Shown here piece by piece: positions 3,664 through 25,838 of a stretch of 64,000 bases of DNA. The number at the start of each line of letters is the position of its first letter. Position 1 is the first letter of the stretch. The notes below the pieces were generated by a model. It was not told where the DNA came from, searched no databases, and saw only the letters and a list, made by a program, of their open reading frames with translations. The stretch is from NCBI RefSeq assembly GCF_902652985.1, contig NC_047026.1, forward strand, positions 31,372,001 to 31,436,000, in the 5' to 3' direction. Both the position numbers and the translations under genes were made by a program. This DNA is from Pecten maximus (Eukaryota).

Positions 3664-3814
3664 CGGGTTTTATCTGTTAAATACACATGTTACTTCGGGG
3701 AAACGAAAGAACGTCGTTCTTGATATCTCTACCATGTAACGACTGACAAAGTATTTTTGGAAGAACACGTGTTTATATTAAATAAACATCCTAGTGTGTA
3801 ATAACTTACATTGT

Positions 3815-3846
<32 letters not shown>

Positions 3847-4665
3847 AACAGCAATTAATGTAAATTTGATTCGTGTATGAAGAGTTTTTTTGTTCAGTCG
3901 GAAGAGGTCATCTTTTATACTTTTTGCACGAGAACCAACATTTTATTACATTGCCATGTTTCTTTCTTTTCCTCTTTGTTGATTAGTTGACTATGAAGGA
4001 TTTTGTAAGCAGAGTAAGCCAGTTTAACATTGATTTAGATGAAGGATTGCCAATCACGTCAGGAGAATCACCTCTACAGCAGATATTTGAATATCTTGTA
4101 AACACACACACAAAAAAATATATTCCAGAAGATAATTAGAATTTCTAATTCCTTTTGATATTAACAGAGTTCTTAATGTCATTTACAATTTCCTGCCAAT
4201 AAAGATTAATTGATTCAGATGTGCAACTACCTCTGGTATAAAACCGAATCGACAAAGGTGATAATTTCCGATCGATTCAGATGTGTAAATAGCTCTGGTA
4301 TTGAACCAGGCCAGAGTGAGATTAATCATTATTATGCAACACTGAACTAAATAGATGTACCAGGTTGTCGAATCATTTACGATGTCATATAATATTTACT
4401 GTCATTTTTATTTGGCAAATGGTCTAGATAGCAATATCTTATTTTTAAATTATGTGTTAGTTTGTTTTAAAAAACAGGATATAATTTTTCAAAACTAAGG
4501 CAGATTTTTATGGATTTTATTTGATCAGTAAAATAAATTAAAGACAATAGTTTACGATTAGGAAGTACGGCGTATAGAATGTTCATGTATATGATGAGAG
4601 AGCAACATCACTTAGAATAAGTAGGATATATGGCTAACACCATGTTCATTGTCATTTTGTATAGT

Positions 4666-5172
4666 ATGAGTTTGTGTTTTTTGTTCTAGGTTTGGTATGG
4701 TTTGTAATGTGTAACTTACCGTCAACATTTATGGTTTTGTGCTAGGTTTGGTTTGGTTTGGTTTGTATTGTTTAATGTCCTATCAACATCTATGCTTTTG
4801 TTCTAGGTTTGGTTTTGATTTGGTTTGGTTTTGTTTGGTTTGTTTAACGTCCCATCAACATCTATGATTTTGTTCTAGATTTGGTTTGTTTTGGTTTCTG
4901 TTGTTTAACGCCCCATCAATATTTAAGACTTTGTTTTATGCTTGGTTTTCTAATTGTTTAACGTCCCATCGACATCTATGATTTAAATTTTGGTTTGGTT
5001 TGGTTTGGCTGATATTGTTTAACGTCCCATCGACATCTATAATTTTGTTCTAGGTTTGTTTTGATTTGGTTTATATTGTTTAACATCCCATCAATATCTA
5101 CGATTTTGTGCTTGGTGTTGGTTTTGTTTGGTTTGTATTGTTTAACGTCTCATCAACATCTACGATTTTGTA
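4666..5172 (-). repeat. Degenerate ~60-bp tandem array derived from a SINE 3' tail (about 8 copies)
   Basis: Unit TTGGTTT..ATTGTTTAACGTCCCATCAACATCTATG reverse-complements to a sequence matching the tail of the SINE at 21080-21268 (ATGGCTGTTAATAGGACGTTAAACAAAATAAACCAA). Confidence 0.8.
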
Positions 5173-5727
5173 TTGGGATCGGTTGCAATTGAAGTGACCA
5201 AAAGAACATGGGTTTGAATTATCCTTGAACAATTATTTTTGTCATTATATATTATAAGATACCAAAGACAAGAAGAAATATGGTAAGAATAACGGCTTAC
5301 AAACGAGGATGATCATTGTCATTCGATACTTACACTGGTATTCCAGATATATTGTTGTCTTTAAATGTTAAAACAACAAGACGTTAAAATAATATATTTT
5401 GAAATTAATGTAAGACGGATTGCATGAATGTTTTTCCCATTTGAAATCTAAATTAATTATTGAGATAATGTAAAGTTACATATGAATATTTAACCATTCT
5501 GTAATTATCAATATCAAATTTAAACGTCTTCATATGGATATTTAAAAGCTAAATCTTTTATTCGTTTTAAATGTAATAGTCTATCGAAAAAATACTATTG
5601 AATAATCGTTTATAGATACTATTATGAGTAAAAGGTATGTTGAAAAATAAACTCATCTAATAGCATGGTAATCGGACGTCAATATGTACATGGAAGCTTC
5701 TCTACTTTGACTGAAAAGTAAACCTAC

Positions 5728-5853
5728 CTTTACAAAGAGTATCAGCCTCGTCACTGCCATCAGCACATTCAATTTCTCCGTCACAAACATCATACGGCGG
5801 TATGCACTGCCTGTTATTGCACTGCCAGTGGTCGGCACCGCACAGAGGGTAGA
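5728..5853 (-). CDS. Exon: LDL-receptor class A module 3 ([42 protein letters not shown])
   Basis: CAG acceptor, GTAGG donor, phase 1-1, 126 nt; six Cys plus the D-G-S-D-E acidic motif. Confidence 0.95.
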
Positions 5854-8800
5854 CTGTATTAGACAGATTAGATTAATACATAGATGGAACACTATTACAC
5901 AGAGGGTAGACTGTATTAGAAAGATTAGATTAATACATAGATGGAACACTATTACACAGAGGGTAGACTGTATTAGAAAGATTAGATTAATACAGAGATT
6001 GCTGAATGTTACAGAGATGATAAACCATTGCAGAGATGGTAGATTGTTAGAGAGATGGTAGACTGTCTCAGATATGGTAGACTTTTACAGAGATGATAAA
6101 CCATTGCAGAGATGGTAGATTGTTAGAGAGATCGTAGACTGTCTCAGAGATGGTAGACTATTACGGAGATGGTAGACTATTACAGAGAGGGTATATTATT
6201 ACAGAGATGGTAGACTATTACAGAGATGGTAGACTATTACAGAGAGGGTATATTATTACAGAGATGGTAGACTATTACAGAGATGGTAGACTATTACAGA
6301 GAGGGTAGACTGTCTCAGAGAGGTAGACTATTACAGAGAGGGTAGACTATTACAGATAGGGTTGATTATTACAGAGATGGTAGACTATTACAGAGATGGT
6401 AGACTATTACAGAGATGGTAGACTATTACAGAGATGGTAGACTATTACAGAGATGGTAGACTATTACAGATAGGGTTGACTATTACAGATATGGTAGACT
6501 ATTACAGAGATGGTAGACTATTACAGAGAGGGTAGACTGTCTCAGAGAGGGTAGACTATTACAGAGAGGGTAGACTATTACAGAGAGGGTAGACTATTAC
6601 AGAGATGGTAGACTATTACAGAGAGAGTAGACTGTCTCAGAGAGGTAGACTATTACAGAGAGGGTAGACTATTACAGATAGGGTTGATTATTACAGAGAC
6701 GTTTGATTATTACAGAGATGGTAGACTATTACAGAGATGGTAGACTATTACAGAGATGGTAGACTATTACAGAGATGGTAGACTATTACAGAGAGAGTAG
6801 ACTATTACAGAGAGGGTAGACTATTACAGAGATGGTAGACTATTACAGAGAGAGTAGACTGTCTCAGAGAGTTAGACTATTACAGAGAGGGTAGACTATT
6901 ACAGATAGGGTTGATTATTACAGAGATGGTAGACTATTACAGAGACGTTTGATTATTACAGAGATGATAGACTATTACAGAGATGGTAGACTATTACAGA
7001 TAGGTTTGATTTTTACGGAGATGGTAGACTATTACAGAGAGGGTAGACTATTACAGATAGGGTTGATTATTACAGAGATGGTAGACTATTACAGAGACGT
7101 TTGATTATTACAGAGATGATAGACTATTACAGAGATGGTAGACTATTACAGAGATGATAGACTATTACAGAGATGGTAGGCTATTACAGATAGGTTTGAT
7201 TTTTACGGAGATGGTAGACTATTACAGAGAGGGTTGATTGTTACATTTATTTTGTACATCATCATTGTTTACCATATACAAATATGACATGATAAAAGTC
7301 TAGGAATGTGACATACTACAGTTGTCCTCGTCCGACCCATCAGCACAGTCTTTGTAAAAGTCACACACATTGGAAGCCGATACACAGCCTCCACAGTTGC
7401 ACTGGAAACTCGTCCCGGAACACTCTGGTCCTGTAGGAAAAAATCAACTCTCTGTATAAAGAAGGGCCGCAGTATAACATGTATCTTTAAACTGATGTTG
7501 TCAATTAAGGATATATAATGTAAATGTGTTCTTCATTAAAGCACGATAAATCCACATCGATACAGTTATCTTATTCTGCAAAAGATATGTACCAATTCAA
7601 TAACACTAAATATACAACAAAGCCAGTATATCGACATTCTTCTGGATAATAAGCAAAAGTATACCCGGCTACGTCAGCTGCACAGAAATAGGACTAATGC
7701 CTATACTATTGATGTTGGCTGAATAGGGCAAATTTGGATTTGTCGCATTGTTGCCATGAAATCGGGAGCACAACCAATTTTAAGTTTAGTCCAAATGCTT
7801 AGTCGCCGCGAAAAGGTGTCATTTATTTTTGCCGCTATTTAGCTGTATCTTTTACCTTGTTTTTTGCGTTATGTTGAAATGGCCATTTCCTAACAACAAA
7901 TGTGAAACTCTCCATTTTAGAAAAATATAATGAGCATATGCGACAAAAGTTATCAGAATATTGTCTACAAAAAAAAGAGGACAATATGCAGCTCGTTAAT
8001 TAGAATGGCGCTCACTCGCTGCCACAAACTGGGTTTTTTAAGAATTATTTACTTTTTTCACTTTGTTCTGGCGATAGTGATTTTTCTGCCATCATGCTTC
8101 CACAACAATGTGAAAAATGTAAAATGTTTATCATCGATACTCACAACAGAGGTTTAACAAGATACATATGAGAGGAATAAAAAGCTATTATCACTTAATT
8201 GGTTCCCTTATTACTTTTGACTCTAATTGAAATAGCGATGGTAATGAAATGATCGTTAAACAACTTTCGATCATAAACTACTTATTATCATCAGCAGGCC
8301 ATGGAATATTCCGTAAATATCATTGACAATTTTGTTCAACTATCAGTACGTCATGGAATATTAATAAAAAAATCCATAATGATATCACATTTCACCATTT
8401 ACGACACTGGCCAGGGATGTTTTTAAAAGAGGACGGCATACCACAGTTATCTTCGTCTGACTGGTCCCAACAATCGCGGAGCGTATCACACACAAACTCG
8501 CTAGATATGTACTCTCCGGACTCCGTACATCGGAACAACTCTTTGTCTCCATCATATGTAGTGTTTCCGGGAACGATAATAATCCCTGTGAAATAGTCGT
8601 ATTTATCTTAATACAACTATTAATAAAATGGTCAAATACAATAGCAAACAGATAATATGTATAACAAGAAATCCTACTCTGATGACAACAACGCTAGAAT
8701 ATGAGCAAACTATATATTTCCATGGAGACCTCCGGGAAGGTACGAGCAGAACTAGACTTGATATTCTGGAAAGACGTGCGTTTTTTGCTTCATTGAAGAC

Positions 8801-10541
8801 CATCTAATTAAAATCTTGACGGTCATTCTCACTAAGTTACATGAGCATCTAACAACATCCCATAAGAGGTCATGTCCGGGTGACCTTTTGGATAAGCCAA
8901 TCAAATGACTACCTCCAGAAACTTCGAAGTGATTTTTTTTGTGCGAATTAGCATGACTAGAGTGCATAGCTTACATAATCTGTCAATTTGTTTCAAGTCA
9001 TTTCGTCCCACCATGCATATAGGTATATATATGCTGTGTCGAAATGGTTTGCTTCAGATGCATGTTCTGACGATACGGTTTGCTTCAATGACATCGCCCT
9101 GAAAGTGAAATACACATATCTCAAAGGGCAACAGAACTTGACCTCTTACGGGATGTTGTTAGATGTTAATGTAACTTAGTGCGATTTACCATCTGGATTT
9201 TAATTGGATTGCATTGACGACATCCGCGATACATATCTGTGATATATTTGGGTTCGGTAATATCCTCAAAATGATAATCAGATTGTCTGCAATAGAACCA
9301 ACTGACAAGAGACACGCCCGACTTCACATCGCAGAAATTGAATATGATACTGGTAGACTTTACAATGGTCGTTATCATTCTACACCAATCAAAATCCTGT
9401 TTTTAGTTTTAGTCCGTCAAAAATCGACATCTATCACGGTAATCGTGATGGTAGGAACAGAGCCTTAAAATTTAAACAACTGGATAAGTCAAGACCGTAG
9501 GAAGAGAAAGCAGGGCTGTTGCTATCTAGAAATTGTAAATGAATGTTTTTGAATTAAAATCATTACGTTTATCATAAAGGGTTGCATAAAAGACGCATAT
9601 GACGCTTTATTACCTTTCACAACAATTGAGAGTTTGACAGCTACAGCTACAGACTAAAAACCTAGTTGTCCCAGATGGTTACGTTGTAAGTAATGCTCGA
9701 GGCAATGTTGAATAGTCTTTCGTGTCCTTGCTGTCTATTTCATTAGGGTTTGTCCGATTAACATGGCTTATATTTTTTTTTACTTAAAGACAACTAATCT
9801 GACATATCTACAGGTAAGTGATATAGGCATTTGCAAGGTCTATGCTACCTGTATTGAAAAGCTACTCAATGTAATCAGACTGGTATGAACACAAAAATAA
9901 GACGGTTAACAGAGGGTCGCAGTTTGTTCACATGGGAATGTCAGAGATCACTTGTTAGATCCTGTCTCAAAAGTAAATTAATTTGTCAAGATTTCATCCC
10001 CGGTGTATTGCCCTCTTGCACAATCACGGTACTGGTAAAGTCATTTGCCTTTCTTGAAAAACATAATTCTCAATATATGAAAGTTTTTTAATGGGAATGT
10101 AAAATGCTTTATTTTTATAGAAGCGTCGTTCTGAATGTGTGGATCAATACAATTAATAAACAAAAAATTCTTTGAAGGTCGTGAAAATCTGCATACCACT
10201 GAGTACCACAAGTATTTCCAATTTGACCTTGACTTAAGACTTCGTGCCAAGCAGAAAGTATTCTTATGTAACAACACCATACCTGCAACATTTTGCTGTG
10301 TTTGCCACTCGCAAGCGACGTGCTGTGTATTTATCCATTGCCACACCCTTTCAGTGTCCATATGGAATTTGATCCCGAGCGCTAAAGGAACATCCTCTTC
10401 CAAACACCTTTTACATGCTGTCGCAGATCGCGAATGACCAAACCTTAATGATTCATATAGAACATAAATCAAACAACGAACAATGTATTTTGGCTTTATA
10501 TATATTTATAGGACGATAGGACAGACGGAAACGGAAGCGCG

Positions 10542-10577
<36 letters not shown>

Positions 10578-13500
10578 GTCTGTATGACTGTGTATTTTGT
10601 ACAGTAACTATGCCTATATCCGCGTTGACCTAAACAACTTTTGTTCTACGAAAGGGACAATTGATTTATGTATCATACTAAATATTGGTTTTTCACCAAA
10701 TGTTTCATTGTCTTCGAAGACAATGTATGAAGTCACTATGTTACACTGAATGTTTTAATGTAATAACTAAGTACTTGTTTGTATTTCATTCAACGTATTA
10801 AACCAGTGAATAGTTGCGCAGTGATGTTCGTCAGCTATTGGTACATATAAGCACTTTGTTTAGATTAGTACTGAGTTGTATCTATATGAGAAGATATTTC
10901 GTGACCTTCCTCCATTCCACGTGTTGATGTAAAGAGATATTTCCTTCTGGTGCATCTCAGATTTTCATGAACTTTGTTCTAATTACTATTTGCTTTTCTT
11001 CTAGCAGAAGTAGCATGCAAGTATTTTTTGATGAAAATTAACGTAATGACGACTCCTCTGAATTAAAAATATAAGCTGAAAACCATTTATTATATATTAA
11101 CATTTACTTTTTGAATTAGGTTGACTACTTAGGCTGTCAGTAAGTTAACAATGGGGAAAATACGTCGAATTAGCAATACAATAGACGTTGGTAAAGAGGA
11201 ATGTAATTTTCTATATTATCAACTCGGGCCAATGAACACTTATATAGTAGTGACTAATGTAAAAGATTTAATACCAATCGACAAACGTTAGGGATGTACC
11301 ATCACTCCACGTAAAGTCTTTCCATAACATAGTATTGGCAGATAGAGTCAAACCTGTCAAATAAAAACGCATTGTCAATGTCATATTTCTGTCAGGTTTT
11401 AGAACTATACTTAATCTTTTGCTATGAATTCTGAAAAGAATAATTCTGGTTTAAAAAAAAGATAGGATTAAGGATTCGTTTCGATGGAAAACTTTGTGGT
11501 CGACTCGTTGATCTAATCAGAGTTTTGATTAATCGATACAATATATTCCCTACTGGGGTATTACCGAGTACATTTGTATACAATATGTCTGATCCAAGGA
11601 ATGTTTACCACCGATGGAGTTATCCGTTACACAAAAGTAATATTAATACATAGAGCAGAATAGGTGATGTTGTCTTTGTTTGTATAATTAAGACTTGATG
11701 AATACAAACACAGGACCAAATAGATATTATCGATAACACCCAGCTCTCAGCCATCGATTCATGATTGTCGACCAAATACAAAGTAGATAACTCACCGAGC
11801 TTCACCTCATCTACCATAGCTTTGTCGACGTGAAAGGCTAAATCAAATATCCACTTATCCTTACGACTTGTGTGGATAACAGCCAGAGATCCGTTTTTGT
11901 CCATACACTCATCCTCATTGATAAACTCAATACAACCAAACCTACGAGTAAACAGCAAATGCGGATTACTTTGTTATTGTCTTTAGTGTTTTGTGAGATG
12001 AAACCGGCATGATGGTTTTATTTAAGTCAGACTCCTTTATTTCATTTATATAGAATCTGGTGGGAGACGTATAATCTAAATCTCATGATTTTGGGCACAT
12101 ATTCCAAAACTTGTTTCGCAATTGTTGTAAAATCAAGATGAGTAAAGTTTACATTAACAGTTTTAAAGTAGAATGCAGACACCGATGGCTACCCCGGGGT
12201 CCACAACTATTCATGACCAAGTAATCAGCGTTGACAGTCCTATAAATGCAGTCATTCATTTTCGTTGGTTTATGTAATCTACACACAACAGGAATGTGTA
12301 AATATTATCAGACTAATTTTGAAACTTATTTCGTAACCCAATGTAGCATTTGTATACATAAGCAAAATATCAGCCATCACTAAATTACAATTTGATATAA
12401 ATCAGTTAAATTATGTATGAATCATATTATAGACAGATTGATAGATAGATTGTTTACAAATAGTGTTTAGATGTACTATTAGGAACCAAATAATGATATA
12501 AACGACATCCTATTAGCGACTTCAAATGTCAATTATCAATTATACTGAACAAAACAGGCTATTGCTATTAATTTCTGATATGTAATCGTTTGGAATTTAG
12601 GTTCATTTTCTATCATTTCGTAATTGGACATTATCAATTATACTGAACAAAAAAAAACAGGCTTTTGCTATTAATTTCTGATATGTAATCGTTTGGAATT
12701 TAGATGTTCATCTTCTATCATTACGTAATTGGACATTGAAGCTAATTAGCTAAATAGCTGGGTAATTTAAAACTAGTGTGTTGTTTCATAAATATTGCAA
12801 AAAACTGTAAATTTTATTCAGTAAGCTGGAAGCATGACCCTGAAAACAAAACAGCAGATACTATTCGAGTGTAGCCAACATCTATATGTATCAACACAAC
12901 AATAACCTCTTTACTTATTCCACATACAGAAAAAAGTTCAGTAAATTGTAAACCGGCACCGCAATGTAACAAGTTTATTTCAAAATATAAACACATATTT
13001 TAGTTTTATCAAAACATATCGGTATGATAAAAAGTACACTGTCCACACCATCGCACACTGGATATAAAAGTGTTGGTTCACTAAGTTTAAAAACAAAACA
13101 AACAGATGAATGTTGAACTTCCCTACCTGATCATTGCAACAGTAGATATTGCCAACATATCTGTGAACCTAGTACCTCGTTTTCCAATGATGCAAATCAA
13201 TATTATGATTCATATAAATCAAACTTCGGTAACTTGATCTCTGATTACACGAATAAACTTTACTCAAAGTACATTTTTGTAAATATAATTCAGTTCCTAC
13301 AATTGAAATTATATTTTAAGATATACTCTGTAACCGCGAATGCTGGGCCTGGCTCTTAGATTCCCATAAACCCAAAAACTTTGACACAGCGAAGTTCTAC
13401 TCGACTTTTATTAGAACAAATATTAATATATGTAGCACTTGATCAACTGTATATATTACAAGAAAGTCTGTTGATATTAGCATACCGAAAGGATACACCA

Positions 13501-16500
13501 ATAATGTTTAATATTTTGTTATATATAATAATCAGTTGATAAAATAAAAACAAAGTAGTTTTTGCAAAGCTAATTGACAAATTAATTTACAATTAATCAA
13601 AACATCACGTTAACATGTGTAAAAATGATCTAAAATCAATGATATAGTATAATTGTTACCTAAATAATACTCGCTATACTGCTGATATTTTACAATACTT
13701 AAATGCTTTCCGCTCTGCTAACGTTGATAATGGAAAATACTTACTCTTCTAAATAAACGCCCTTGTCTCTACAGGTATCTGCAACAGAAATAATGTAAAA
13801 CTTGACACAACACACGTATGGATATGACACAATATCGACATAGGAGTATTACTTAGATGTACAAAATGGCATGATTGTCTCGTTTCAGTATAGATATAAT
13901 ATTTTTTCTATCTCAGATCGATTGTTGATTTATTTTATTTTATTTACAATGTATTATCTTTGTCCTCTCCTTCATGATATTCTACGATAACCTTCATCAG
14001 TTGTACAGGAGTGTATCATAGATTAGCGAAAGTATGATTTTGATGTTTGATATTTAGATTTGCTTTATTTATTAATAACATGTATAATTGAGAGATATAT
14101 TTACACAAATGTTATATATTCTCAACACGTATCAGTTATAAACGTATGTTTAACTTAATATATATGTTTATCATTAGCAGCAGTAATCCTACTGTAACAA
14201 AACTCTGTGTTTGTTTGTTAATTTGTGACTCAGTGTCATAAATACATTGAGCAAATCTGATTTTTTTATATTTAAACTGACTACATGTTTATGAGGAATG
14301 TGTTTAAATCACATTAAGAAAAAGAAGGTCATCACGCAACGCTATCAACTTTTTAACTAAAGTCAATTGACACAAAAATTGAGAACACAAACTAGGACGA
14401 AGAACACATATCCAACTAAGGCAGATCCGTCTCAATTATGAGTTACGTTACTGCATTTCCTATTTCATCGTGTTTAGACATATGTTCATCATTAAGTTTT
14501 TTTCTGTTACCAGTCCTTGTTTCTACATTACATTTTTTGCTGTAGGCAAAGCTAAACGTTTTATTCATACGACAACACGGGAGATATTTGCTTGACAAAA
14601 CCAATCCCCCATGGCCAGGCTATCCTACTGTGGCCTGCCACCATGGTACTTGGTCTTCCTTTATGTCAAACCAGTTACCAAACCATATCAAATACACACG
14701 ATCATATATTGATTTTAACTTGTGTTTTTTGTATCTACACGCCAAAACATTGATTTTATCTAGACTGTTAAGTATCAAATACAGACAGTAAATAGTTGTA
14801 ACAGCTACTCTTTAATCATACTATGTATCTACACAGTAATTTATGACGTGAATAGAATGTATTTGCACTCGTATATATCATCCACCCTCAACGTTACACA
14901 GCAAAACACGGCGCTTAGACACTTAACCTGACAATCGCTCCGTTATTGACTAAATGTCAATATCATGTGGAATAGTAAATAATAATAGTAATAATTAGAC
15001 AAAGAACAGTTCATATTTCTTGCAACATCAGTGGCACTATTGCTGTAGATCTATTTAATACTGATCAAAAGACCTTAGAATTATACTTATCTATGTTGAA
15101 CAAACTGACAAAGATGGCTGTACAACCTTGAAATTCAGAATATGTCAATGTCAAATCCCCTTTCAGCCACACAAAGAGGACGTCCAAGACAAAAACGGTA
15201 CCTTATCCATGGGACTTTCAAACATTATACGATATTGTAACATTACACGATCGGCAGGAATCGCCGAATCTTTGAGCCAACATGATCTTTAGGAATAACA
15301 AACTTCTTGTTATTCATGATCTGTATGATTATCACTAATTCCATGGATTGTTAATTACAATGTACATAATGGTACGTAATCGACAAATTTGAAGGTAGTG
15401 ATGTCTTACTTTTTAACTTACTATTACAAAATAGACGTAACTATTACTGTTTTATTTTCTCACACCAAAGCCATCGCGTACAACCGCTTATTGTTTGCAG
15501 GCTCGCCACAGTACATTGTACAATAGCGTTGAATCTGATTACTTACCGTACTCGAACTCGACAAAAGTTGTACTGTTGAGTTTTTTGTCATAATCTACGC
15601 AGCTGTACCAGCCCCGGTCCCCGGGTAACGCAGATCTGACCTCCAGGACGCTGATCACATAGTCGTCACTTCTCGTCTCTTTCACCGTATATCTATCTTT
15701 AAAACGTTCGAAAAAGTCCATGGATAGACTTAAATCGTAGGCGAGCTCCCTGACGAAATAGGATCTAGCATGACGGAAGAACCAGGAAAGACGCACGTCG
15801 ATCGGGGCCCGGCAGCTTAAAGTTATTGTTTGGAATGCTTTAAACGTTGTGGAACTTGTGTTTAGAAAATAGGACACTGAAAACAAACATAGTTTTTATA
15901 TACTTGATGAAACTATCATAAACATTGATTCGTACTTCATTCCCATTAATCTACTTAAGGCTTCTTACAGAAGCAACGTGTAAATCGTGAGTAGTTATTA
16001 CAGACACTTTGACCGCGTTACGAGTGACGTGTCTCAATATGGTTGGCATCACAATTATTGAAAACGCCTTGATAAAATATAAAGAGAAATCCTCAACTGT
16101 ATTTCATTCCCTGTGGTAATATGAAAGCTTACTGGAGATGCAGGCTGATCATGTCCGTGCCTTTATGATCGACACCATTATCTGATTCGGAAATATTTCA
16201 ATTCCTTGTACACAGACAAAATTCCTTCAAATAAAATTCACGTGAAATTTTATCATATAAAATTCACATGAAATTCACGTGAAATTCACATGATTTTTGA
16301 CCATGTGAAATTCCCGTTAATTTTGCCATGTGAAATTCACATGTAGGATTTTTGCCTGTGTAATTAAGCTATGGAGTCAGACGTGTTCGATGCTTGTAGA
16401 TATGCCGAGTGTTTCCGTTATCACAGCACTAGTTATCCTATTGAGAATGTGATATAATCCGGATTTGACCTAGATTTGTATGGCGGAGTCCATCGCTTAC

Positions 16501-19500
16501 CCTACCGGAGAACCTGGTGTTATTCTCTTTATGAATTTTGAAGGGTTCTTTATACAAATATTCATATTTTTCTCTCGTTTATCGAAATGAGCATTTAAGA
16601 ACCAAAAGACGCTATCATAAGCTGCAACCAATCGATACCTTTTTTCTTAATTTGATTTAAATATCTGCTGTCACCTTAAGGCGATTGAGTTAACAATAAC
16701 AAATTAATTACTTTTCGCCTTTTATACCAACCTATCAATGGTAATATTGACAGTTCGTTATTTGATGGATTATAAAACACTCTCCCTTGAAAAATAAAAA
16801 CCAATCGAACGTAAGACTGCTTGCAGGTAAAATTTCTGAAGGAAAATAGGCTTCTCGCTGCAGCCACTAAACCTTTAGAAACGGCATAGAAGTATGGCTA
16901 TTCTTTATTTTGATATTATTGATATTATTCTAGATATAGAGAAAATTAGCACGGGAAGACATTGGACGACTATCTGTCCGCTTTAATACTGCTAGGGGCG
17001 GATCCACACTTAGTAGTACATTAAAACGGTTGTATTCATTCGGACTAGGAAAGGTATTGTAATTATTGCAACAATGCAAATGCAATAAGGCATTTAAGAG
17101 GATTTTATACAGGAAAATATTCAACAGTCAGTTCTTCCTTTTAATCCATAACAGTTACCCATTTTCAGCCGATATTGCACCTTTGAAAGAACGATTTCCA
17201 AATTATGATTATGTTTGAATGTGATGTTGTTCAATTGTCATCAAAGAAACTCATATCTAAACAACAATCAAAGAAAATATTGTAAAACAATTTTAATATT
17301 TCGTGGTTATCTTATGAAAAATGTTCCCCAATTCATACTACTGTATAAATTATCATGCAACTCAGACTGTGGCAGCAGTATCCCACGAAAAAAGTGCTTA
17401 TAACAATAAAGAACATTATTAAAATTTAGTATAATATTCAAAACATCATAACTTTTCAAAGTCTTAGATGACTGGACCGAACTTGTGGTTGACTATATAA
17501 AGTGTACATGCATTTCCACAATATTGTTCTACATTATGTTCTACATTATGTCATTAACTGGATGTCCAGTCTTATTTATACTAACAAGCAACGACACGTC
17601 TCACTGAACAGAGAAAACTCAAAATGGACAAACGTAACATCTGGAATACCTCAAGGAACAGTGCTTGGAGCGATATTGTTTATGATGGGATGTTCTCTGA
17701 ACGCCAACAATTTTCTTCAAAAATAGGCAGGTGTTGTTTGAAGTAACAATAGGAAGAGAATCATATACTTTTCATATAATGTAAGCTGTCTTTTTCATCG
17801 GTATATTTACCTGAGCTTTACCTGATGTTTTACACAATTCAATTCCAAACTTCTAGTAAATAATAATTTTGTCTAAATTTGCTATTTATAGCACATTTTT
17901 GTCATAACATGTTCGAAACACTGAAAATATTTCCCGGTGTTTTGAAAAAAAAACACGACATTATAATCATGCGTATATGGAACAAAAATGAGAGGGACAT
18001 ATATGTCATTATGTTTTTATTTGACCTAACAGGACGTAAAACTCTATTAGAAGTGGAAGACATTGGGATATAGGAGTGATTATGGACAGAATTGACACTA
18101 TTGAAGATCAAATATGTACACAAGTAAAGAAAGCCAATTCTATGTTTGCAGATATAAGGCGATCCTTTCATTTTCTAAACGAACAATATTTTCCATTGAT
18201 GAGAATAAAACATTAATAAAAGTTCATCTTCCTTCAAATTTAACCATATCGATATGACTGAGGCCTAACAAAGGATAAACTGTGGAAACTCCTATTTTGT
18301 GAGCTACAGAAGAGTTAGAGGGAACAGGATTGATATGTTTGAAACAACAAGCATGATAACTGTGCAACATATTATATTATGATGTGTAAAGATTAATCCC
18401 TAAGACAAAGGATAAGAGGACATCCAATGGAAGGATCCCCACAATATCCTAGACAAGATATTCGAAAGAACTGTTTGCCTTGTGAATTGTAAGATTATGG
18501 AACAATCTTCCAAAACATGTTGTTTTATCATCGAGTGTAATTATCTTAAAAAATAGACCGGATAAGCATTGGAAGAACCAGAAACTCCTTTATGATTATA
18601 GATCTCAGATCAGTTTATTATCAAAGTAACGTCACATTTATATGCTATTAAATAATTAGACTTTGTCACAGTCCCAACTATATTTTGATATAAATATGTT
18701 GCTTGTACATTAATTTTGTAATATGGTAGAATTTCTATATATTTTAATGTGTAATTTATATTTAAAATTTAGTAATTATTTATCATTTGCCATAAATACG
18801 GATGCTCCGGATCCGGGTCCATAGCGAGGTAATTAATGGGAGAGAGACATTCGTGGGGTTAAACGGGCGGACCGTTTGTATGTTCTTGAAGGTGTACATG
18901 GGTTTTGCAAGAGCAAAATACAGTTTGCGGTGAAATAATGTTTCTTATACCCAATATGACATATGTTGCGTTTATATCTGAAGCGTAAACGTGTTATTTT
19001 CTTATCGTACTGCGTACCGATGAGTACAGTTCATAGGTCTGTAAATATAATCTTCATGACGCTCAAATTTGAAGTAAGTGAACGATGATATTTGATGTAA
19101 AGTATTATCTATGATTAGAAATGTTGCATTTGCCGTAGTTCATCACTTATTTGGTAGAATTGGCTAGTCTTACTAGTGTTTAACAGATATGTGTTTAGTT
19201 ATCGTATTAGCTCTTATGTAATATGCATAACTACACATGTATATGCAAATTTGGTTTATCTCTCGTTTTCCTTCGCAATATTAGTATTATATACGAGTAC
19301 ATCTGAATAGGTATTAAATAATGTGTCGTTTATATAAATATCTGCATGTCGATAGAAATGCGATGCAAACAAATACTAGATCATTATGGTATTTGCATAG
19401 TGCAGTAAGGATTATAGTTAGACATTCATATATATGCCGTTACAGTTCCAACCCATGATGGTGTGAGGGCAGATGTAACTTTATATAGACCTGTGTGGGC

Positions 19501-22500
19501 AACTGCATTGTCATATGTTCTGTGTTGGTAACTGCATTGCCGTATGTCCTGTGTGGGCAACTATATTCCCATATGTCCTGTGTGGGTAACTTTGAGCTGT
19601 CCTTTGTGGACAGATACATGTTCTTGACTGGAGCTGTAGGTGTACCAATTTCCTGTGTGGATATGACTATATGCCACGCCTGCCGTCATTGACAGATTGC
19701 CGGAAATAGACTATGTTATATCTGTGGATTGTAGACCAGCCAATTCAGAGTTGAGAGTGTATGTACGGTTGAGTGTAGACTAAAGGTTACACAAAGTGCA
19801 CTCCGAGTGCACTCCGTTTGGACTCCAGGTAAACTTGGAGTGCACTCCGAGTGCACTCCAAGTTTACCTGGAGTCCTATCAGGCTCCAATTCTACATGGG
19901 TCCACATGTATCACATGTACCTGTAACCAAGTACATACAGTATACTCATATACAGGTAGACTCATAAAACATGTTACAATAAGATATGCTATACTGTTTT
20001 ATCTTTTTTATATCTCATCTTATTATTTTGTTGGTTCATTTTTAGTTGGTTAATTAAGAATGCATCTAATATAATTGATTTTTTTTATTAGAGCCTGAAG
20101 TTGGTTCCGAGTTCCGAGTTCCGTTTAAGATATTCCATTGAAGAAAAAAAACGAACTGGGAATTAGTTTCCAAATTCCTTAAAGAAAAGATTCTACGTAC
20201 TTTATCTCATTACAAGACCATAATCTGAAAAGAAATGATATGTCAATGAGTGTAGGGACACTTATAAGTCAGGTATAAACTTTACGGACTTGGTCTTTGC
20301 TCCCAGTTCCGTTTAAAATAAATGAAACTAGAAACCATTTCCGAGTTCCGTTTAAGTAAAAACGGAACTGGGTCCGAGTTCCGTTTAACCAGTTCCGAGT
20401 TTCGTTTAAGTAAAACGGAACTCCAGTTCCGAGTTCCGTTTAACCAGTTTCGAGTTCCGTTTACCTGTGAAATATAGAAAATTATCAAGCTGATATTTTC
20501 ACTGCAGTAATGAGCAGTGAATATATAAGATTTTGCCGTGAAAATATAAGGTTTTGCCTGAACTGCTTTCGGCATGGGCGCAGTAATATCAGACGGACTG
20601 CGTTTATAATCATTAGGTATCCATATCCAACTAAACTGTTTACAAAAATAGTGGATGAAATATTGGGTTTTAGGAATCAATAAACACATATGTGTCTTTT
20701 TTATTTTATATATAATTTTTTCAAATGTGGAACTATATTTTGTAGTGTGCAAATATTTCAAAATGCGCACCTATCCCGATCAGCTGACTCGATCGGCTGT
20801 CTTTTCGACTGATTGGCTTAACTACATTCCAGTGGCAGGTTAAGGAAAGAAAATAATAAAAGCATTCTAAGGCCTCATTCGAAATGTAATAAAAAGAAAA
20901 TTTAATGGTTAGACGTTCAATATCAAATATATTTCACTCGTATGACAGATTGTTCTCGTTATTTGCATACAACAAGTATGCCATACCCGTGAAATATATT
21001 TGATATTACACGGCAAACCATTGAAAATCCTCTATATACAAATTGTTTATGTAACTTATTTGATAGAGCTACCCTAATAGGAGCCGCGGTGGCCGAGTGA
21101 TTAAGGTGTACCGACATTTTATCACTAGCCCCCCACCTCTGGGTCGCGAGTTTGAAATCCACGTGGGGCAGTTGCCTGGTACTTCTCCGGGACTTTCCTC
21201 CACCTCCAGAACTTGGCACATCATTAAATGGCCATGGCTGTTAATAGGACGTTAAACAAAATAAACCAAGCTAAAGCTACCTTGTTAACCAACATCATAA
21301 ACGTCATCTTGAAAGTTTGAAATCGCGGATCGGATTCCCTGATGCGTGCTTCACTGACTTCCGGGCGCTACTGTGGATGGTGTGTTATCTCAAAATCAAA
21401 GCTCGTTCTTGATATCTTATAAATGCATCATATAAGATATTCTTTTTTTGTAAGATATGTTATATACGTCATGGGATATCTTTCACAATCAAACGCTTGT
21501 TCGATATTGTATTAATTGTTAAGATAAATGCAATATGGATGACAATAAACAGAATGACGCTTGTTATCGTTTAATTGTTATATGTACATTTGTATATTGA
21601 CTAAGGTTAATTAAACTCTGTCTTTCTGATATTGTCATCCATTTCCCAATACGTTCATTTGAATGAATAACATCTTTGAATCAAATTCATAGATATATAC
21701 AATATCTTATATTATTTAGTTAATTACTGGATCAACATTGCTCTACGAATAAATGATCACTTGTCTTGCTATCGAAATCCGTCGTTTTAATGGCAGTAGA
21801 TAATTAAACTTGTTCGTACGTGATAATAGGTCGTACGTAGTACGTCTGAAGGAATAGCATTACGATACAGATACAGTCTCTGTCAGTATAATGTGGTCGA
21901 GTAATGTGGCATTTAATGCAAAGTACTCTCAGACCAGATTGATCTATAACAAGGAGAAATATTCATGCTAAAAGCTGGACCATATCACTTATCAAGATAA
22001 TTACTTATCAAAACAATGATACCCCGTTCTCTCCGACGAGATGGTCGTATCCTGTTCGGTCTGAATAGTGTTACGATCTGTTGTAAACATAAGGCGGGCT
22101 ACAACGTATCTCTATAGAGTAAAAGAGGAGATCATTAATGAAGCTGGGCGCGGACAATTTAATTTTCACAACAAACAAATAACAATGATTAAATATCTAC
22201 CCTATCTTACATCAAACATCAGGCGGTCGGCACGATTGACGATACGGATTAGTCTACACATCTGAACTAATGGACACAGAAATAGCCCCGATAAGAATAA
22301 AGAAAAGTCGTGTAAATGCAGATTGCTTTTGTTGTTTTTGTTCATTTAGACCGCTAATGATTTAATATCAAGCCATGACATCCCATACCACCCAGTGTCA
22401 TTGAATTCAGGATCATTGATATCAGTCACCTGGGAATTAATCTAAACGAATGGATACCATAACACTTATACACTTCAGGTAATGAAACAGGCTACTCTCC

Positions 22501-25500
22501 AGGGTTAACGATAATGAACAATAAACACTTTACATTACGATATGGGCCGAACTTTAAAGGAAGCTGTCGAGCATATATTTTTCATGAAATATTCGAATAC
22601 CAAGTGTCCATTAACATCAAATAGTTATCACGAAGTTTGCAAAATTAAATATGTCCATTTGTTTGATTTGTTTTTATCCTGACCCCGACAATAGCGATGA
22701 TACACGTTTCAACATAATATTGAAAAATAGTATGGTCACCCTTAAGGTTTCCGGTAAATACAGTGTCAGGAGGATTTCAGACATGTCATTGTAATTGATT
22801 GGGTGCTGCAGTTCTTTAAAAGGTAATAGATATACACTCTGTGTGTTGAGTCTGATACTGTCATAACCCCTCTAACATTAGACTTTTCCTTTGATACAAA
22901 GCCTTATGCTAAGGATTAAATAGATCTACGTCATAGGCAAGTTATGTTTTTTATGAGCGATGGAGAAGTATTCTTGTAAAATGCTATCTTAATGTCTGAA
23001 ATAGTTTTATAGACAAGTTCTATGCGGTGGGGAAAATGTCACATTGTTTCAATACTCATATTAATCCACATATCTTATATTGTTATTAATAAAATACATC
23101 TTAATACTATCAAGGTCTATGGCCATGTTGGTATTTCATGAAACGTGTGAAGGCTCGCGGTGGTATACTATTAGTAAACTTATCATTAAGTTTTCATTGT
23201 TTCATGTTCACAAGACAATGTCATCAGTTATTGGATAATGTCATCAGTTATTGGATAATGTCATCAGTTATTGGTTAATGTCATCGGTTATTGGATAATG
23301 TCATTAGTAATTAGATAATGTCATCAGTGTTTTGGATAATGTCGTCGGTAATTAGATAATGCCATCGGTTATTGGTTAATTTCATCAGTAATTAGATAAT
23401 GCCATCGGTTATTGGATAATGTCATCAGTTATTATATAATGTCATCGGTTATTGGTTAATGTCATCGGTTATTGGATAATTTCATCAGTAATAAGATAAT
23501 GGCATCGGTTATTGGATAATTTCATCAGTAATTATATAATGTCATCGGTTATTGGAAAATGCCATCGGTTATTGGATAATTTCATCAGTAATTAGATAAT
23601 GTAATCGGTTATTGGATAATGTCATCAGTTATTGGATAATTTCATCAGTAATTAGATAATGGCATCGGTTATTGGAAAATGCCATCGGTTATTGGATAAT
23701 TTCATCAGTAATTAGATAATGTCATCGGTTATTGGATAATGTCATCAGTTATTAGATAATGTCATCGGTTATTGGATAATGTCATCAGTTATTAGATAAT
23801 GTCATCGGTTATTGGTTAATGTCATCGGTAATTAGATAATGTCATCAGTAATTAGATAATGTCATCGGTTATTCGATACCTATCTTATACAATATTGCAT
23901 GTCTACAATATTCTAAATAAGCAAGGGATGTAACTTTTGCATAACAGCAAATCTTTATAATTTGTTCAAGTTAATACAATTTTACCTGTTAAAACGACTA
24001 ATCTGTATAGTTTTAAAACGGAATTATTTTGTATAAAGGTTAATATCATGTAGGAGGAAAACAGAGAAAAAATGAGTTTACAAAAACAGCAAGATTACCG
24101 ACACAACAATGAAACCGTAACTCAGATACTACATCGATAAAACGAAGACAACATAACAACAGATATAGACTTTCATTGAGACTTATAAAAAAAAGGACAA
24201 TAAGACCATGTGGTCCGAAAGAGTAAGCGTCTTCTGATTTATCGACAACACCCTTCATACAGATCTAGGTCACGACGACACCCGCTATACAAATCTAGGT
24301 CACGACGACACCCGCTATACAGATCTAGGTCACGATGACACTCGCCATACAGATCTAGGTCACGACGACACTCGCCATACAGATCTAGGTCACGACGACA
24401 CTCGCCATACATATCTAGGTCACGACGACACCCTCCATACAGATCTAGGTCACGACGACACCCGCCATACAGATCTAGGTCACGGGGACACTCGCCATAC
24501 AGATCTAGGTCAAATCCTGGTTAAATCACAAAGTCAAATGAGAATGTAGGTGTGTGATGGCAACGAAAGCATGGGGCATATCAACAAGCATCGAACATGT
24601 CTGATGTTATATCACACGAAGAATTATGCTATTTACAAAATTACAAAATGATATCGTGATGGCGACAATCAAACTTGCCCGTTGTCTTCTTGTCATCTTT
24701 CTTTTATCTTCTCGCCTATAACCTGTAACCCTCTGGATTGTATCTGGACTGTTATCATTGTGATTATAGCTATAAACAGGTTTCTTTCTCCTGCTCTATA
24801 TCTACATAGACTCTAAGTTAGCTTATACGAAGTAATCGTCATGCTAAACTGCCTATAAATATGTTAGCGATATTGTGGGATATTATAAAATATCCCACAA
24901 TATCGCTAAGGTTTGACTTTGTTTGCATTTTTTAAGGTCATATCGGAACTCAAATCGTGAAACACAGATAACGGCAGTGTTAGGCCAGTTCATGACTCAT
25001 AAACGGTCATTAATGCAAAATTCGAACATATGAATTATATTTTAAACTGAAGATCATTACACTAATACTGCGAGACGAATGGGGTACTTGAGTGCGAGAC
25101 ATACTTCTAAAGTACATGTATGTAGCGTCTTGTTCATTTCTTTCCAATTTGTTAGCAGATTTAGGATTAACGGAATATTCAGTTGTTGCGGGACGAAACA
25201 GATATGCCATTTTTAATAAGCTGTCCTGAGTAAAACGATGTTTAGCAATGTGTAACAATGTAACATACTTTTAGGCAGTTTAGCATTAGTCTGCTCCTCA
25301 AAATGTCAGCGATCTGTTTTGGTAAAATACCCAAAGCACATTTACATATGTGTAACGTTAATCTTATCGTACTCATGAAAAATATAAACCGCCATGGAAC
25401 TAGTTATCGAAGTTATTTCTTTGTTACGGCGAATGCTTCTGGTATTTTGGGAATCGCGTATTCTGAACTATTAAGATTAGTTGCATCGGTATCTAAATTT

Positions 25501-25838
25501 TTGTATCCGTTTACTTATAGGAGGAATATCCTACCTTTCGCTGGACTGGGAGACGTGGAGTCTGTACTGGAAGGTCTCGTGCTCGTCGTGTCTATGAAGC
25601 TCTTGGTAGATGTATCAGAGGGCGTTGTGGTTAACAAACCTTTCAAGTCTCCGGTGGTCGTATCAGCTGGTAAAGTACCTTCCTTATTTACACCTGGGCC
25701 AGAAGTTAGGGAACTCTTGGGATCTTTAGTTGTTGTAAGCAAATCTACTGGAGTTGTGCCATTTTCATGAGTGTAAGTTACGCTCAAGACGATTACAATT
25801 ACACGTATTACAAGAAAGGCTGGTTTTCGGTATGCCAT
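5728..25838 (-). CDS. Partial gene (3' end outside window): signal peptide + mucin-like stalk + Ig domain + C-type lectin-like domain + LDLa repeats; possibly GRL101-like/LDLa receptor. join(25838-25535,15876-15547,13778-13745,11941-11796,11353-11275,10443-10283,8585-8442,7430-7317,5853-5728)
   Basis: Nine GT-AG-bounded exons whose phases chain with no stop (1438 nt, about 479 aa). Domain motifs are recognisable. The link from exon 1 to the Ig exon (9.7-kb intron) is phase-compatible but less certain. Confidence 0.8.
5841..5995. repeat. 57-bp triplication spanning the splice acceptor of the LDLa-3 exon
   Basis: CACAGAGGGTAGACTGTATTAG recurs at 5841, 5898 and 5955. Confidence 0.92.
6005..7243. 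repeat. 19-bp minisatellite (GAGATGGTAGACTATTACA)n, intronic
   Basis: About 65 tandem units that fill most of the intron between LDLa exons 2 and 3. Confidence 0.97.
7317..7430 (-). CDS. Exon: LDLa module 2 ([38 protein letters not shown])
   Basis: TTTCCTACAG acceptor, GTATGT donor, phase 1-1, 114 nt; DCADGSDE motif. Confidence 0.95.
8442..8585 (-). CDS. Exon: LDLa module 1 with 4 Cys ([48 protein letters not shown])
   Basis: TTTCACAG acceptor, GTATGC donor, phase 1-1, 144 nt; DCxDxSDE motif. Confidence 0.93.
10283..10443 (-). CDS. Exon: C-terminal part of C-type lectin-like domain ([13 protein letters not shown]...[20 protein letters not shown])
   Basis: AAG acceptor (phase 2), GTATGG donor (phase 1); ends with the CTLD-like 'VACE'; phases match both neighbours. 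Confidence 0.8.
10543..10576 (+). repeat. Poly-G run (34 nt)
   Basis: Homopolymer directly visible, in an intron. Confidence 0.95.
11275..11353 (-). CDS. Exon: middle of C-type lectin-like domain ([27 protein letters not shown])
   Basis: TTTGACAG acceptor, GTATTA donor, phase 1-2; classic GL...F-x-W-S-D-G-T...W CTLD motif. Confidence 0.9.
11796..11941 (-). CDS. Exon: N-terminal part of C-type lectin-like domain ([48 protein letters not shown])
   Basis: TAG acceptor, GTGAGT donor, phase 2-1; C...C-x4-G-S-L-A-V-I pattern. Confidence 0.88.
12533..12738. repeat. Direct tandem duplication of about 100 bp (2 copies)
   Basis: TTATCAATTATACTGAACAAAA...GTAATTGGACATT occurs twice back to back. Confidence 0.85.
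13745..13778 (-). CDS. 34-nt micro-exon carrying the first Cys of the long-form CTLD ([12 protein letters not shown])
   Basis: TTTCTGTTGCAG acceptor, GTAAGT donor, phase 1-2; exactly bridges the Ig exon (phase 1) to the CTLD exon (phase 2). Confidence 0.85.
15547..15876 (-). CDS. Exon: immunoglobulin-like domain (ITLSC...LSWF...DRGWYSC)
   Basis: TTTTCAG acceptor, GTAAGT donor, phase 1-1, 330 nt; B-strand Cys, C-strand Trp and D-x-G-x-Y-x-C motif. Confidence 0.93.
16211..16360. mobile_element. 150-bp MITE with imperfect TIRs, TA flanks and internal AAATTCACATG repeats
   Basis: TA|CACAGACAAAATTCCTTCA ... TGTAGGATTTTTGCCTGTG|TA. Confidence 0.75.
16455..16535 (+). repeat. Single-unit copy of the interspersed repeat that seeds the 30-bp arrays at 24.2 kb and 35.2 kb (opposite orientation)
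   Basis: GGATTTGACCTAGATTTGTATGGCGG...CGCTTACCCTACCGGAGAACCTGGTGTTATT is the reverse complement of the array unit plus its flank. Confidence 0.7.
17555..18610 (+). mobile_element. Decayed CR1/L2-group LINE ORF2 fragments (RT domain and C-terminus)
   Basis: Translates to [19 protein letters not shown] (RT PQG motif), then [15 protein letters not shown] and [16 protein letters not shown]...[11 protein letters not shown]. Stops, frameshifts and an interruption at about 17690-18040. Confidence 0.85.
19490..19605. repeat. About 29-bp degenerate tandem repeat (CTGTGTGGGCAACTGCATTGCCATATGTC), about 4 copies
   Basis: Visible tandem units. Confidence 0.7.
19820..19876. repeat. Perfect 57-bp palindrome (28-bp arms, 1-nt spacer), probably a MITE remnant
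   Basis: GGACTCCAGGTAAACTTGGAGTGCACTC-C-GAGTGCACTCCAAGTTTACCTGGAGTCC. Confidence 0.9.
20100..20465. repeat. Cluster of CCGAGTTCCGTTT / AAACGGAACT direct and inverted motifs (probable non-autonomous DNA-transposon remnant)
   Basis: Motif repeated about 8 times in both orientations. Confidence 0.55.
21080..21268 (+). mobile_element. tRNA-derived SINE
   Basis: Pol III A box TGGCCGAGTGA, B-box-like GAGTTTGAAATCC, central TTCTCCGGG..TTTCCTCCACC core, and tail GGACGTTAAACAAAATAAACCAA. Confidence 0.85.
23217..23875. repeat. 20-bp minisatellite (AATGTCATCGGTTATTGGAT)n, about 33 copies
   Basis: Directly visible. Confidence 0.97.
24190..24520 (-). repeat. Interspersed repeat containing a 30-bp tandem array (CCATACAGATCTAGGTCACGACGACACCCG, about 9 units)
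   Basis: Same flank (AAAGGACAATAAGACCA.GTG.TCCGAAAGAGTAAGCGT.TTCTG) and same unit as at 35125-35640. Confidence 0.9.
24841..25286. mobile_element. Probable MITE bounded by 26-bp inverted repeats; contains a perfect 46-bp hairpin (24864-24909)
   Basis: ATGCTAAACTGCCTATAAATATGTTA ... TAACATACTTTTAGGCAGTTTAGCAT; no clear TSD. Confidence 0.55.
25535..25838 (-). CDS. First coding exon: signal peptide + Thr/Ser/Pro-rich mucin-like stalk ([30 protein letters not shown]...SPSPAK)
   Basis: ATG, basic n-region and hydrophobic h-region, T/S-rich tract, GTAGGA donor in phase 1 compatible with the Ig exon. Confidence 0.7.

What the first reader, a model, noticed from the sequence alone, without database searches (positions are those of the whole stretch)
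5728..25838. Unusual mosaic extracellular protein: mucin stalk - Ig - C-type lectin - LDLa x3, mostly absent from the ORF track
Seen: nine phase-compatible exons, including a 34-nt micro-exon, build SP-mucin-Ig-CTLD-LDLa-LDLa-LDLa, and the frame continues out of the window. Established: molluscan GRL101-type GPCRs have LDLa arrays before LRRs and a 7TM, and Ig+CTLD fusions (CREPs) are mollusc pattern-recognition molecules. Inference: joining an Ig+CTLD recognition head to an LDLa array may be a new receptor architecture, for example a lectin/Ig-capped GRL101-like GPCR. This is the best candidate for a new system in the window.
Basis: partly seen in the sequence, partly recalled or inferred. 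Interest (0 to 1): 0.75.

Follow-up and report, generated by a model that had tools for sequence, protein, structure and literature searches.

The report
Scallop Ig-capped GPCR with pseudokinase tail

Summary
Nine minus-strand GT-AG exons give exactly 479 codons: signal peptide, Ser/Thr-rich stretch, Ig, degenerate C-type lectin-like domain (CTLD), LDLa x3. Ten more exons left of the window complete a stop-free 1,609-aa receptor: LDLa-like, neurexin-4/fibrinogen-like domain, LDLa x2, LRRs, 7TM and a 117-aa kinase-fold tail. It is Pecten maximus LOC117338985. CTLD+LDLa+LRR+7TM 'GRL101-like' receptors are published (PMC12297450) and widespread (44 of 173 relatives), so this is not a new system. 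Two features were not found in ten paper searches. First, Ig caps: 4 of 173 proteins plus two genomic paralogues, all scallops. Second, a truncated kinase-fold tail: 36 of 173 relatives across molluscs, arthropods and hemichordates; AF2 pLDDT 90, kinase Z up to 12.4; no HRD in 25 of 25. RNA-type contigs join six 3' junctions, including 7TM to tail; none covers a 5' junction. Ligand and function are inferred only. Verdict: new variant of a known receptor family.

The parts
25535..25838 (-). Exon 1: start codon, likely signal peptide (aa 1-~23) and Ser/Thr/Pro-rich N-terminal extension (aa ~25-101)
   Evidence: Phase-1 GT donor; same junction in RefSeq P0001; two paralogues on C19 have a similar first exon ending in phase 1. 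Absent from the Argopecten model; no RNA junction seen.
15547..15876 (-). Exon 2: single Ig domain (aa 102-211)
   Evidence: Pfam Ig_3 E 0.0014; 64% identical to orthologue; matching exons in the paralogues hit V-set/Ig_3/I-set at E 6e-7 to 4e-5; one run-X2 contig lies wholly inside it.
13745..13778 (-). Exon 3: 34-nt micro-exon, start of the CTLD
   Evidence: AG/GT, phase 1 to 2; 7 of 11 residues identical in orthologue; in RefSeq model.
11796..11941 (-). Exon 4: CTLD, first half
   Evidence: 73% identity to orthologue.
11275..11353 (-). Exon 5: CTLD middle; RefSeq uses an earlier donor in this exon
   Evidence: 77% identity.
10283..10443 (-). Exon 6: CTLD C-terminal part; missing from RefSeq XP_033756241.1 but conserved
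   Evidence: 37 of 54 residues identical to Argopecten P0002; tblastn E 2e-20; homologous exon in both C19 paralogues.
8442..8585 (-). Exon 7: LDLa 1 (first Cys missing)
   Evidence: Pfam PF00057 E 5e-7.
7317..7430 (-). Exon 8: LDLa 2
   Evidence: Pfam PF00057 E 1e-9.
5728..5853 (-). Exon 9: LDLa 3
   Evidence: Pfam PF00057 E 8e-11.
1..5727 (-). Part of intron 9 (8,454 nt, mostly a 59-bp satellite). The gene goes on outside the window in G000:C12 (minus): exon 10 31369273-31369049 LDLa-like; exons 11-12 31367260-31366900 and 31366023-31365857 neurexin-4/fibrinogen-like domain; exon 13 31364715-31364566 Cys motif; exon 14 31364173-31364057 LDLa; exon 15 31363703-31361907 LDLa+LRR+TM1-6; exon 16 31361343-31361204 TM7; exon 17 31360599-31360518; exons 18-19 31359366-31359143 and 31358501-31358373 kinase-fold tail and stop
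   Evidence: six junctions (exons 13-19) joined by contigs.

Best explanation
The nine exons encode the outer part of one 1,609-aa type C2 (GRL101-like) leucine-rich-repeat GPCR that likely senses a large extracellular partner with its Ig, lectin-like and fibrinogen-like modules and is predicted to signal through G proteins, with its kinase-fold tail likely acting as an inactive scaffold. Shown: gene structure, domain order, conservation in another scallop genus, intact 7TM motifs (DRF at 1281, CWFP at 1411, NPFLY at 1448), four-Cys hinge, splicing of exons 13-19, kinase fold of the tail. Inferred: (1) distal modules bind a macromolecular ligand (microbial or host surface protein/glycoprotein); since the CTLD lacks EPN/QPD/WND, binding is probably Ca-independent and not classical sugar binding; (2) binding is passed to the 7TM through the membrane-near LDLa/LRR/hinge, by analogy with RXFP1, whose LDLa is needed for activation; (3) the tail, which keeps only the hinge-to-alphaF core of a kinase and has no HRD, cannot phosphorylate and would serve as a docking or trafficking module. 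The Ig cap is a scallop-lineage addition, by phase-1 exon shuffling, to an old CTLD-LDLa-FBG-LRR-7TM-tail core.
For: One stop-free frame over 19 GT-AG exons. The RefSeq protein and the Argopecten orthologue are single proteins with the same order. Two paralogues on C19 have the same order with three Ig-like units. Six 3' junctions are joined by contigs of runs X1, X2, X8. Relatives swap N-terminal caps on the same core. Ig-bearing members fall in one clade whose named members are scallop proteins (FastTree support 0.90; window gene + C19-type paralogues 0.98). Tail: profile hits 503 PDB sequences, the 60 shown all kinases, best E 7e-10; AF2 pLDDT 90; Foldseek and VIA-align top rows all kinase-fold, Z 12.4, rmsd 3.6 over 109 residues; HRD in 0 of 25 tails. 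43 of 84 genome matches to the 7TM have E<1e-30, i.e. an expanded family. A related CTL-GRL101 cluster lies in a snail schistosome-resistance region (PMC12297450, passages).
Against: No contig joins any of exons 1-12, so the Ig-to-7TM link rests on gene models and conservation. RefSeq skips exon 6, which would break the CTLD; this may be a real isoform. No ligand, expression or signalling data were obtained. The window gene itself shows no sign of immune-type diversification: its Ig exon is single-copy (1 match) and 64% conserved between genera. In the snail study the validated variant lies in a neighbouring non-GRL101 gene. The runs are only guessed to be RNA, and X1 and X8 may be one data set.
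Confidence: 0.55

Rival explanations
1. Same protein, but a peptide-hormone receptor: an IGF/insulin-like peptide binds the LRRs and LDLa modules, and the Ig/CTLD head is a spacer or co-receptor surface.
For: Type C1 LGRs bind relaxin/insulin-like peptides, and GRL101 is proposed as a second IGF receptor (PMC8286064, passages; PMC6267866, passages). The CTLD is degenerate.
Against: That proposal concerns the single-copy many-LDLa GRL101; this gene belongs to an expanded, cap-swapping set. Type C2 receptors are still called orphan or undetermined.
Confidence: 0.25
2. Two genes fused by annotation: a secreted CREP-like Ig-CTLD-LDLa protein (the window part) and a separate downstream LRR-GPCR.
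For: No RNA junction for exons 1-12; intron 9 is 8.5 kb of mostly satellite; the Mizuhopecten model P0003 starts at exon 11.
Against: Exon 9 ends in a phase-1 donor with no stop, and exon 10 continues in phase; the orthologue and P0005/P0126 are continuous proteins; both C19 paralogues keep the same exon order.
Confidence: 0.05
3. A chemosensory or adhesion/developmental receptor (cell-cell or matrix contact), not an immune one.
For: The middle domain resembles neurexin-4/COLFI (Atlas 0.86, lead only); Ig and Ser/Thr-rich heads are common in adhesion receptors (own knowledge); a starfish GRL101-like gene is enriched in sensory tentacles (PMC6267866, passages).
Against: No tissue data here; nothing separates this from the best reading except the ligand class.
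Confidence: 0.15

Closest known systems
CTL-bearing GRL101-like GPCRs of Biomphalaria sudanica SudRes2 (Pennance et al. 2025, PMC12297450; passages read)
   Same: CTL + LDLa + LRR + 7TM; lineage-expanded; poorly annotated in the reference genome.
   Different: The passages read mention no Ig ('immunoglobulin' 0 occurrences in the main text). This gene has an Ig cap, a Ser/Thr-rich N-terminus, a degenerate CTLD, a fibrinogen-like middle domain and a kinase-fold tail. Supplements not read.
Lymnaea GRL101 / LGR type C2 (as described in PMC8286064, PMC4079206, PMC6341585, PMC8660763; passages read)
   Same: More than one LDLa before the LRRs, four-Cys hinge, rhodopsin-type 7TM, orphan.
   Different: Classical GRL101 has 12 LDLa + 6 LRR and is single-copy in the species studied; this one has 5-6 LDLa split by a ~200-aa domain, plus Ig, CTLD and tail. 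Strict orthology to Lymnaea GRL101 was not tested.
Database GRL101-like proteins of Haliotis (P0009, P0010), Crassostrea (P0011), Strigamia (P0012), Dermacentor (P0255), Saccoglossus (P0201)
   Same: CTLD-LDLa core, LRR-7TM and the kinase-fold tail; the fibrinogen-like domain in the mollusc and arthropod members.
   Different: Their caps are ApeC, F5/8, CUB, EGF rather than Ig; the CTLDs aligned (P0009, P0012, P0198) keep QPD and W-x-D-x-x-C.
CREPs / VIgLs of gastropods (PMC10075465; passages read)
   Same: Signal peptide, Ig, then CTLD.
   Different: CREPs end in the CTLD; here the chain continues 1,250 aa to a 7TM. Sequence kinship of the Ig domains untested.
Pseudokinase domains (TYK2 second matched domain, VRK3, RNase L, PAN3 among top hits)
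   Same: Kinase fold without the HRD motif.
   Different: Only ~117 aa; most of the N-lobe and the helices after alphaF are absent; fused behind a class A 7TM.

Membership tests
LGR type C2 / GRL101-like | More than one LDLa N-terminal to the LRRs | tested here: met
   Five Pfam LDLa stretches plus one degenerate.
LGR type C2 / GRL101-like | LRR ectodomain | tested here: met
   LRR_8 E 1e-37; at least 8 LRR motifs by pattern.
LGR type C2 / GRL101-like | Hinge with four cysteines (definition from PMC6341585 passage) | tested here: met
   Four Cys between residues 1147 and 1169 of the model.
LGR type C2 / GRL101-like | Rhodopsin-type 7TM | tested here: met
   7tm_1 E 1e-31 over profile 1-260; DRF, CWFP, NPFLY present.
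GRL101 sensu stricto (Lymnaea orthologue) | One-to-one orthology, about 12 tandem LDLa | tested here: inconclusive
   LDLa number differs; no Lymnaea sequence was identified in my tree.
CTL-GRL101-like (PMC12297450) | CTL-like domain + LDL + LRR + GPCR | tested here: met
   the CTLD is below Pfam detection.
CREP (VIgL) | One or two IgSF domains followed by a CTLD | tested here: met
CREP (VIgL) | CTLD is C-terminal; no membrane receptor part | tested here: not met
   Frame continues to a 7TM.
CREP (VIgL) | Ig domain homologous to FREP/CREP IgSF1/IgSF2 | not tested
   No CREP sequence was retrieved; searches with the head and the paralogue's first Ig-like exon found only scallop self/orthologue or nothing.
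Ca-dependent C-type lectin | EPN or QPD plus WND-type motif (motifs recalled from general knowledge) | tested here: not met
   EPN, QPD, WND absent from the whole protein; alignment shows loss of QPD and shifted cysteines.
Active protein kinase | Full two-lobe domain with catalytic HRD | tested here: not met
   117-aa domain; HRD in 0 of 25 tails, HGN here; the three DFG strings sit at the last helix, not the activation segment.
Protein kinase-like fold | Sequence profile and structure match to kinase domains | tested here: met
Neurexin-4/Caspr-type fibrinogen-like (COLFI clan) domain | Fold or profile match for aa ~528-730 | tested here: inconclusive
   Atlas 0.86 (below 0.9, lead only), ten best family hits in one clan; no Pfam hit; not folded.

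The most novel reading that the evidence does not exclude
The CTLD-bearing GRL101-like receptors are an ancient bilaterian class of GPCR-pseudokinase chimeras: a fixed LDLa-LRR-7TM-mini-pseudokinase signalling core under interchangeable recognition caps. Scallops built an Ig-capped branch (one to three Ig domains over a lectin-like domain) that works as a membrane-signalling counterpart of the soluble Ig-lectin immune molecules of molluscs, signalling through both G proteins and the kinase-fold tail.
Probability: 0.25. Interest if true: 0.75.

Novelty: new variant of a known kind. Interest (0 to 1): 0.47.

Why it matters
Type C2 LGRs are orphan receptors, and CTL-bearing members sit in a snail parasite-resistance region. 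A class A GPCR with a conserved, folded, minimal kinase-like tail would be an unusual signalling design, and the tail is small enough to express and test directly. The Ig-capped scallop branch gives a natural series (1 versus 3 Ig-like units, degenerate CTLD) for asking what the caps bind. It also corrects RefSeq models: LOC117338985 lacks a conserved exon, and the C19 paralogue model lacks its whole head.

Tried and rejected
Alternative exon-6 candidates between 11270 and 8590 were enumerated; only 10443-10283 matches the orthologue. An Ig-like word near 22431 and possible extra Ig exons in intron 1 were tested with eight paralogue exon translations: no credible match besides exon 2. A single-sequence AlphaFold model of the orthologue's Ig+CTLD head failed (pLDDT 34) and was not used. 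The look-up of sequencing runs listed no holder on record as RNA. Laying four runs on window 7270-16200 gave no exon-exon joint; one X2 contig covers the micro-exon unspliced; this is no evidence either way. Exon 1, exon 9 and exons 10-12 were not covered by any lay. Word-based searches with the head (2 hits of 1,440 candidates) and with the paralogue's first Ig-like exon (0 of 259) are weak negatives. Pfam at E<=1e-4 found no Ig in 28 of the 46 hits of >=1,000 aa, but that cut-off also missed the Ig of P0126, so Ig counts are lower bounds. Two look-ups of earlier findings were empty. Paper searches showed no listing on an Ig-capped or kinase-tailed GRL101; of the three papers holding both 'GRL101' and 'immunoglobulin' I read passages of one (unrelated adhesion GPCR), and of the five listed for 'GRL101'+'kinase domain' passages of one (receptor tyrosine kinases).
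Full report
Observation. The window is AT-rich animal DNA with many tandem repeats. Pfam confirms three LDLa modules above cut-off and an Ig domain below it (E 0.0014). The CTLD is too divergent for Pfam. The ESM Atlas places the orthologous region with Lectin_C clusters (0.92; 28 of 30 hits), and a profile built from nine relatives' CTLDs scores it 15.5 bits against a best of 8.1 in 200 shuffles. It lacks EPN, QPD and WND and its cysteines are shifted from the canonical pattern. The Ser/Thr-rich part follows the signal peptide, so it is a distal extension and not a stalk.

The rest of the gene. The window is G000:C12:31372001-31436000. In the 120 kb fetched to its left, ten more exons continue the frame: an LDLa-like module, a ~200-aa domain, a Cys motif, two LDLa, LRRs, a complete 7TM and a C-terminal tail. 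The full model has 19 exons and 1,609 aa. The top database hit is identical over the query and named LOC117338985 of Pecten maximus, 1,547 aa. It matches my model except that it leaves exon 5 early and skips exon 6. The Argopecten orthologue (named GRL101-like, 1,527 aa) contains exon 6 at 69% identity; exons 2-19 are 59-85% identical, while exon 1 has no counterpart in that model. Contigs of runs X1, X2 and X8 join six junctions from exon 13 to exon 19 at the predicted GT-AG sites, including 7TM to tail. These runs are guessed to be RNA, X1 and X2 share a study and X8 may duplicate X1. No contig joined exons in the window part.

Relatives. The 7TM finds 84 matches in the genome, 43 with E<1e-30. 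The two nearest loci, on C19, have the same exon order, a similar signal peptide and Thr-rich first exon, and three Ig-like units before the CTLD; the third matches the window's Ig and passes or nears Pfam Ig cut-offs, the first two have no Pfam hit and are called Ig-like from their Cys/Trp pattern only. One of the two has a frame break in the 7TM near C19:16510457. The window gene has no trace of the extra units in intron 1. I pooled 173 proteins: the 145 new ones of the best 150 from the representative search and 28 GRL101-like hits picked. Many are fragments, and the pool includes the profile seeds. Home-made profiles found a CTLD in 44, the tail in 36 and the middle domain in 21 of 173. 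An Ig was found in 4 of 173: the gene itself, its orthologue, an Argopecten paralogue and a Ylistrum paralogue. In a FastTree of 75 7TM regions (those from long or tail-bearing proteins, of 163 extracted) these fall in one clade (0.90) whose named members are all scallop proteins, some with LRR-only ectodomains. Other relatives carry ApeC, F5/8, CUB, Kringle, EGF or PAN caps; 12 of 28 scanned have Pfam Lectin_C. So the family has a fixed core with swappable caps, and Ig is the scallop cap.

The tail. An alignment of 25 tails hits 503 PDB sequences, the 60 shown all protein kinases or pseudokinases, best E 7e-10; 12 of 25 members hit PK_Tyr_Ser-Thr and 8 hit Pkinase at E<=0.1. AlphaFold2 with this alignment gives pLDDT 90, pTM 0.84. 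Foldseek's listed hits are kinase domains, and the wide VIA-align search gives Z 12.4, rmsd 3.6 over 109 residues at the top, with kinase-fold entries filling the list. The domain is only 117 aa, covers the hinge region to alphaF, and has no HRD in 25 of 25, so catalysis is very unlikely (inference from established kinase chemistry). Named carriers include bivalves, gastropods, a centipede, mites and a tick, a nemertean and hemichordates. The middle domain resembles neurexin-4/COLFI clusters at 0.86, a lead only.

How it likely works. Shown: an intact class A LGR with conserved DRF, CWFP and NPFLY motifs. Inferred: the distal Ig, lectin-like and fibrinogen-like modules capture a macromolecular ligand without classical Ca-dependent sugar binding; the membrane-near LDLa/LRR/hinge passes the signal to the 7TM as proposed for RXFP1 (abstract openings in the listing); the tail is a dead scaffold. 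I put this at 0.55, a peptide-hormone receptor at 0.25, a sensory/adhesion role at 0.15 and a two-gene artefact at 0.05.

What is known. Type C2 LGRs are defined by several LDLa and are orphan (passages of PMC4079206, PMC8660763, PMC6341585, PMC11863921). GRL101 has been proposed as an IGF receptor (PMC8286064, passages) and as chemosensory in starfish (PMC6267866, passages). CTL-bearing GRL101-like receptors are described from Biomphalaria sudanica (PMC12297450, passages), where the CTL is called unique; my pool shows it is widespread. CREPs end in their CTLD (PMC10075465, passages), so this is not a CREP. Ten searches gave no listing on an Ig cap or a kinase-like tail in this family. The library lacks most subscription journals, I read passages and no supplements, and domain databases may already flag the tail automatically, so 'undescribed' is provisional.

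Verdict. A real, conserved, partly mis-annotated scallop gene; a new variant (Ig cap) of a known receptor kind, with a family-wide truncated kinase-fold tail as the more surprising feature. Interest 0.47.

Noticed in passing
window 5841-7245 (intron 8): The 19-bp minisatellite resembles the exon-9 splice acceptor: 45 AG|TCTAC sites in the intron, and two near-exact acceptor copies at 5967 and 5910 that would read into a stop after 11 codons.
   Followed up: partly
G000:C19:16485539-16517760 and 16615969-16640734 (L015-L034): Two paralogues with signal peptide, Thr-rich exon, three Ig-like units, CTLD and the same core. The RefSeq model P0004 starts inside the CTLD and misses the head. The first locus has a frame break in the 7TM near 16510457 (pseudogene or assembly error).
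   Followed up: partly
window ~50566-56353 (+): Multi-exon glycosyltransferase family 7 (beta-1,4-galactosyltransferase-like) gene, divergent from the receptor; last ORF has a ~160-aa C-terminal extension of unknown kind.
   Followed up: partly
window 48625-49614 (-); also about 20-22 kb left of the window: ORFs that look like fragments of LINE reverse-transcriptase elements (recognised from memory; no Pfam hit for the window ORF).
   Followed up: no
window 1-3668, 26981-30976, 40691-42198, 61702-62939: Long satellites with units of 59, 53, 61 and 100 bp; the first lies in intron 9 and continues 2.5 kb left of the window.
   Followed up: no
window 8800-9180: Short high-copy element in intron 6, very deeply covered by contigs of all four runs.
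   Followed up: no
G000:C19:16480001-16483407 (L031): Sulfotransferase-like exons just upstream of the first paralogue (recognised from memory).
   Followed up: no
P0007, P0121, P0127, P0141 (scallop database proteins): LRR-only relatives without LDLa or tail group with the Ig-capped receptors in the 7TM tree, suggesting repeated ectodomain loss and LRR expansion in scallops.
   Followed up: no
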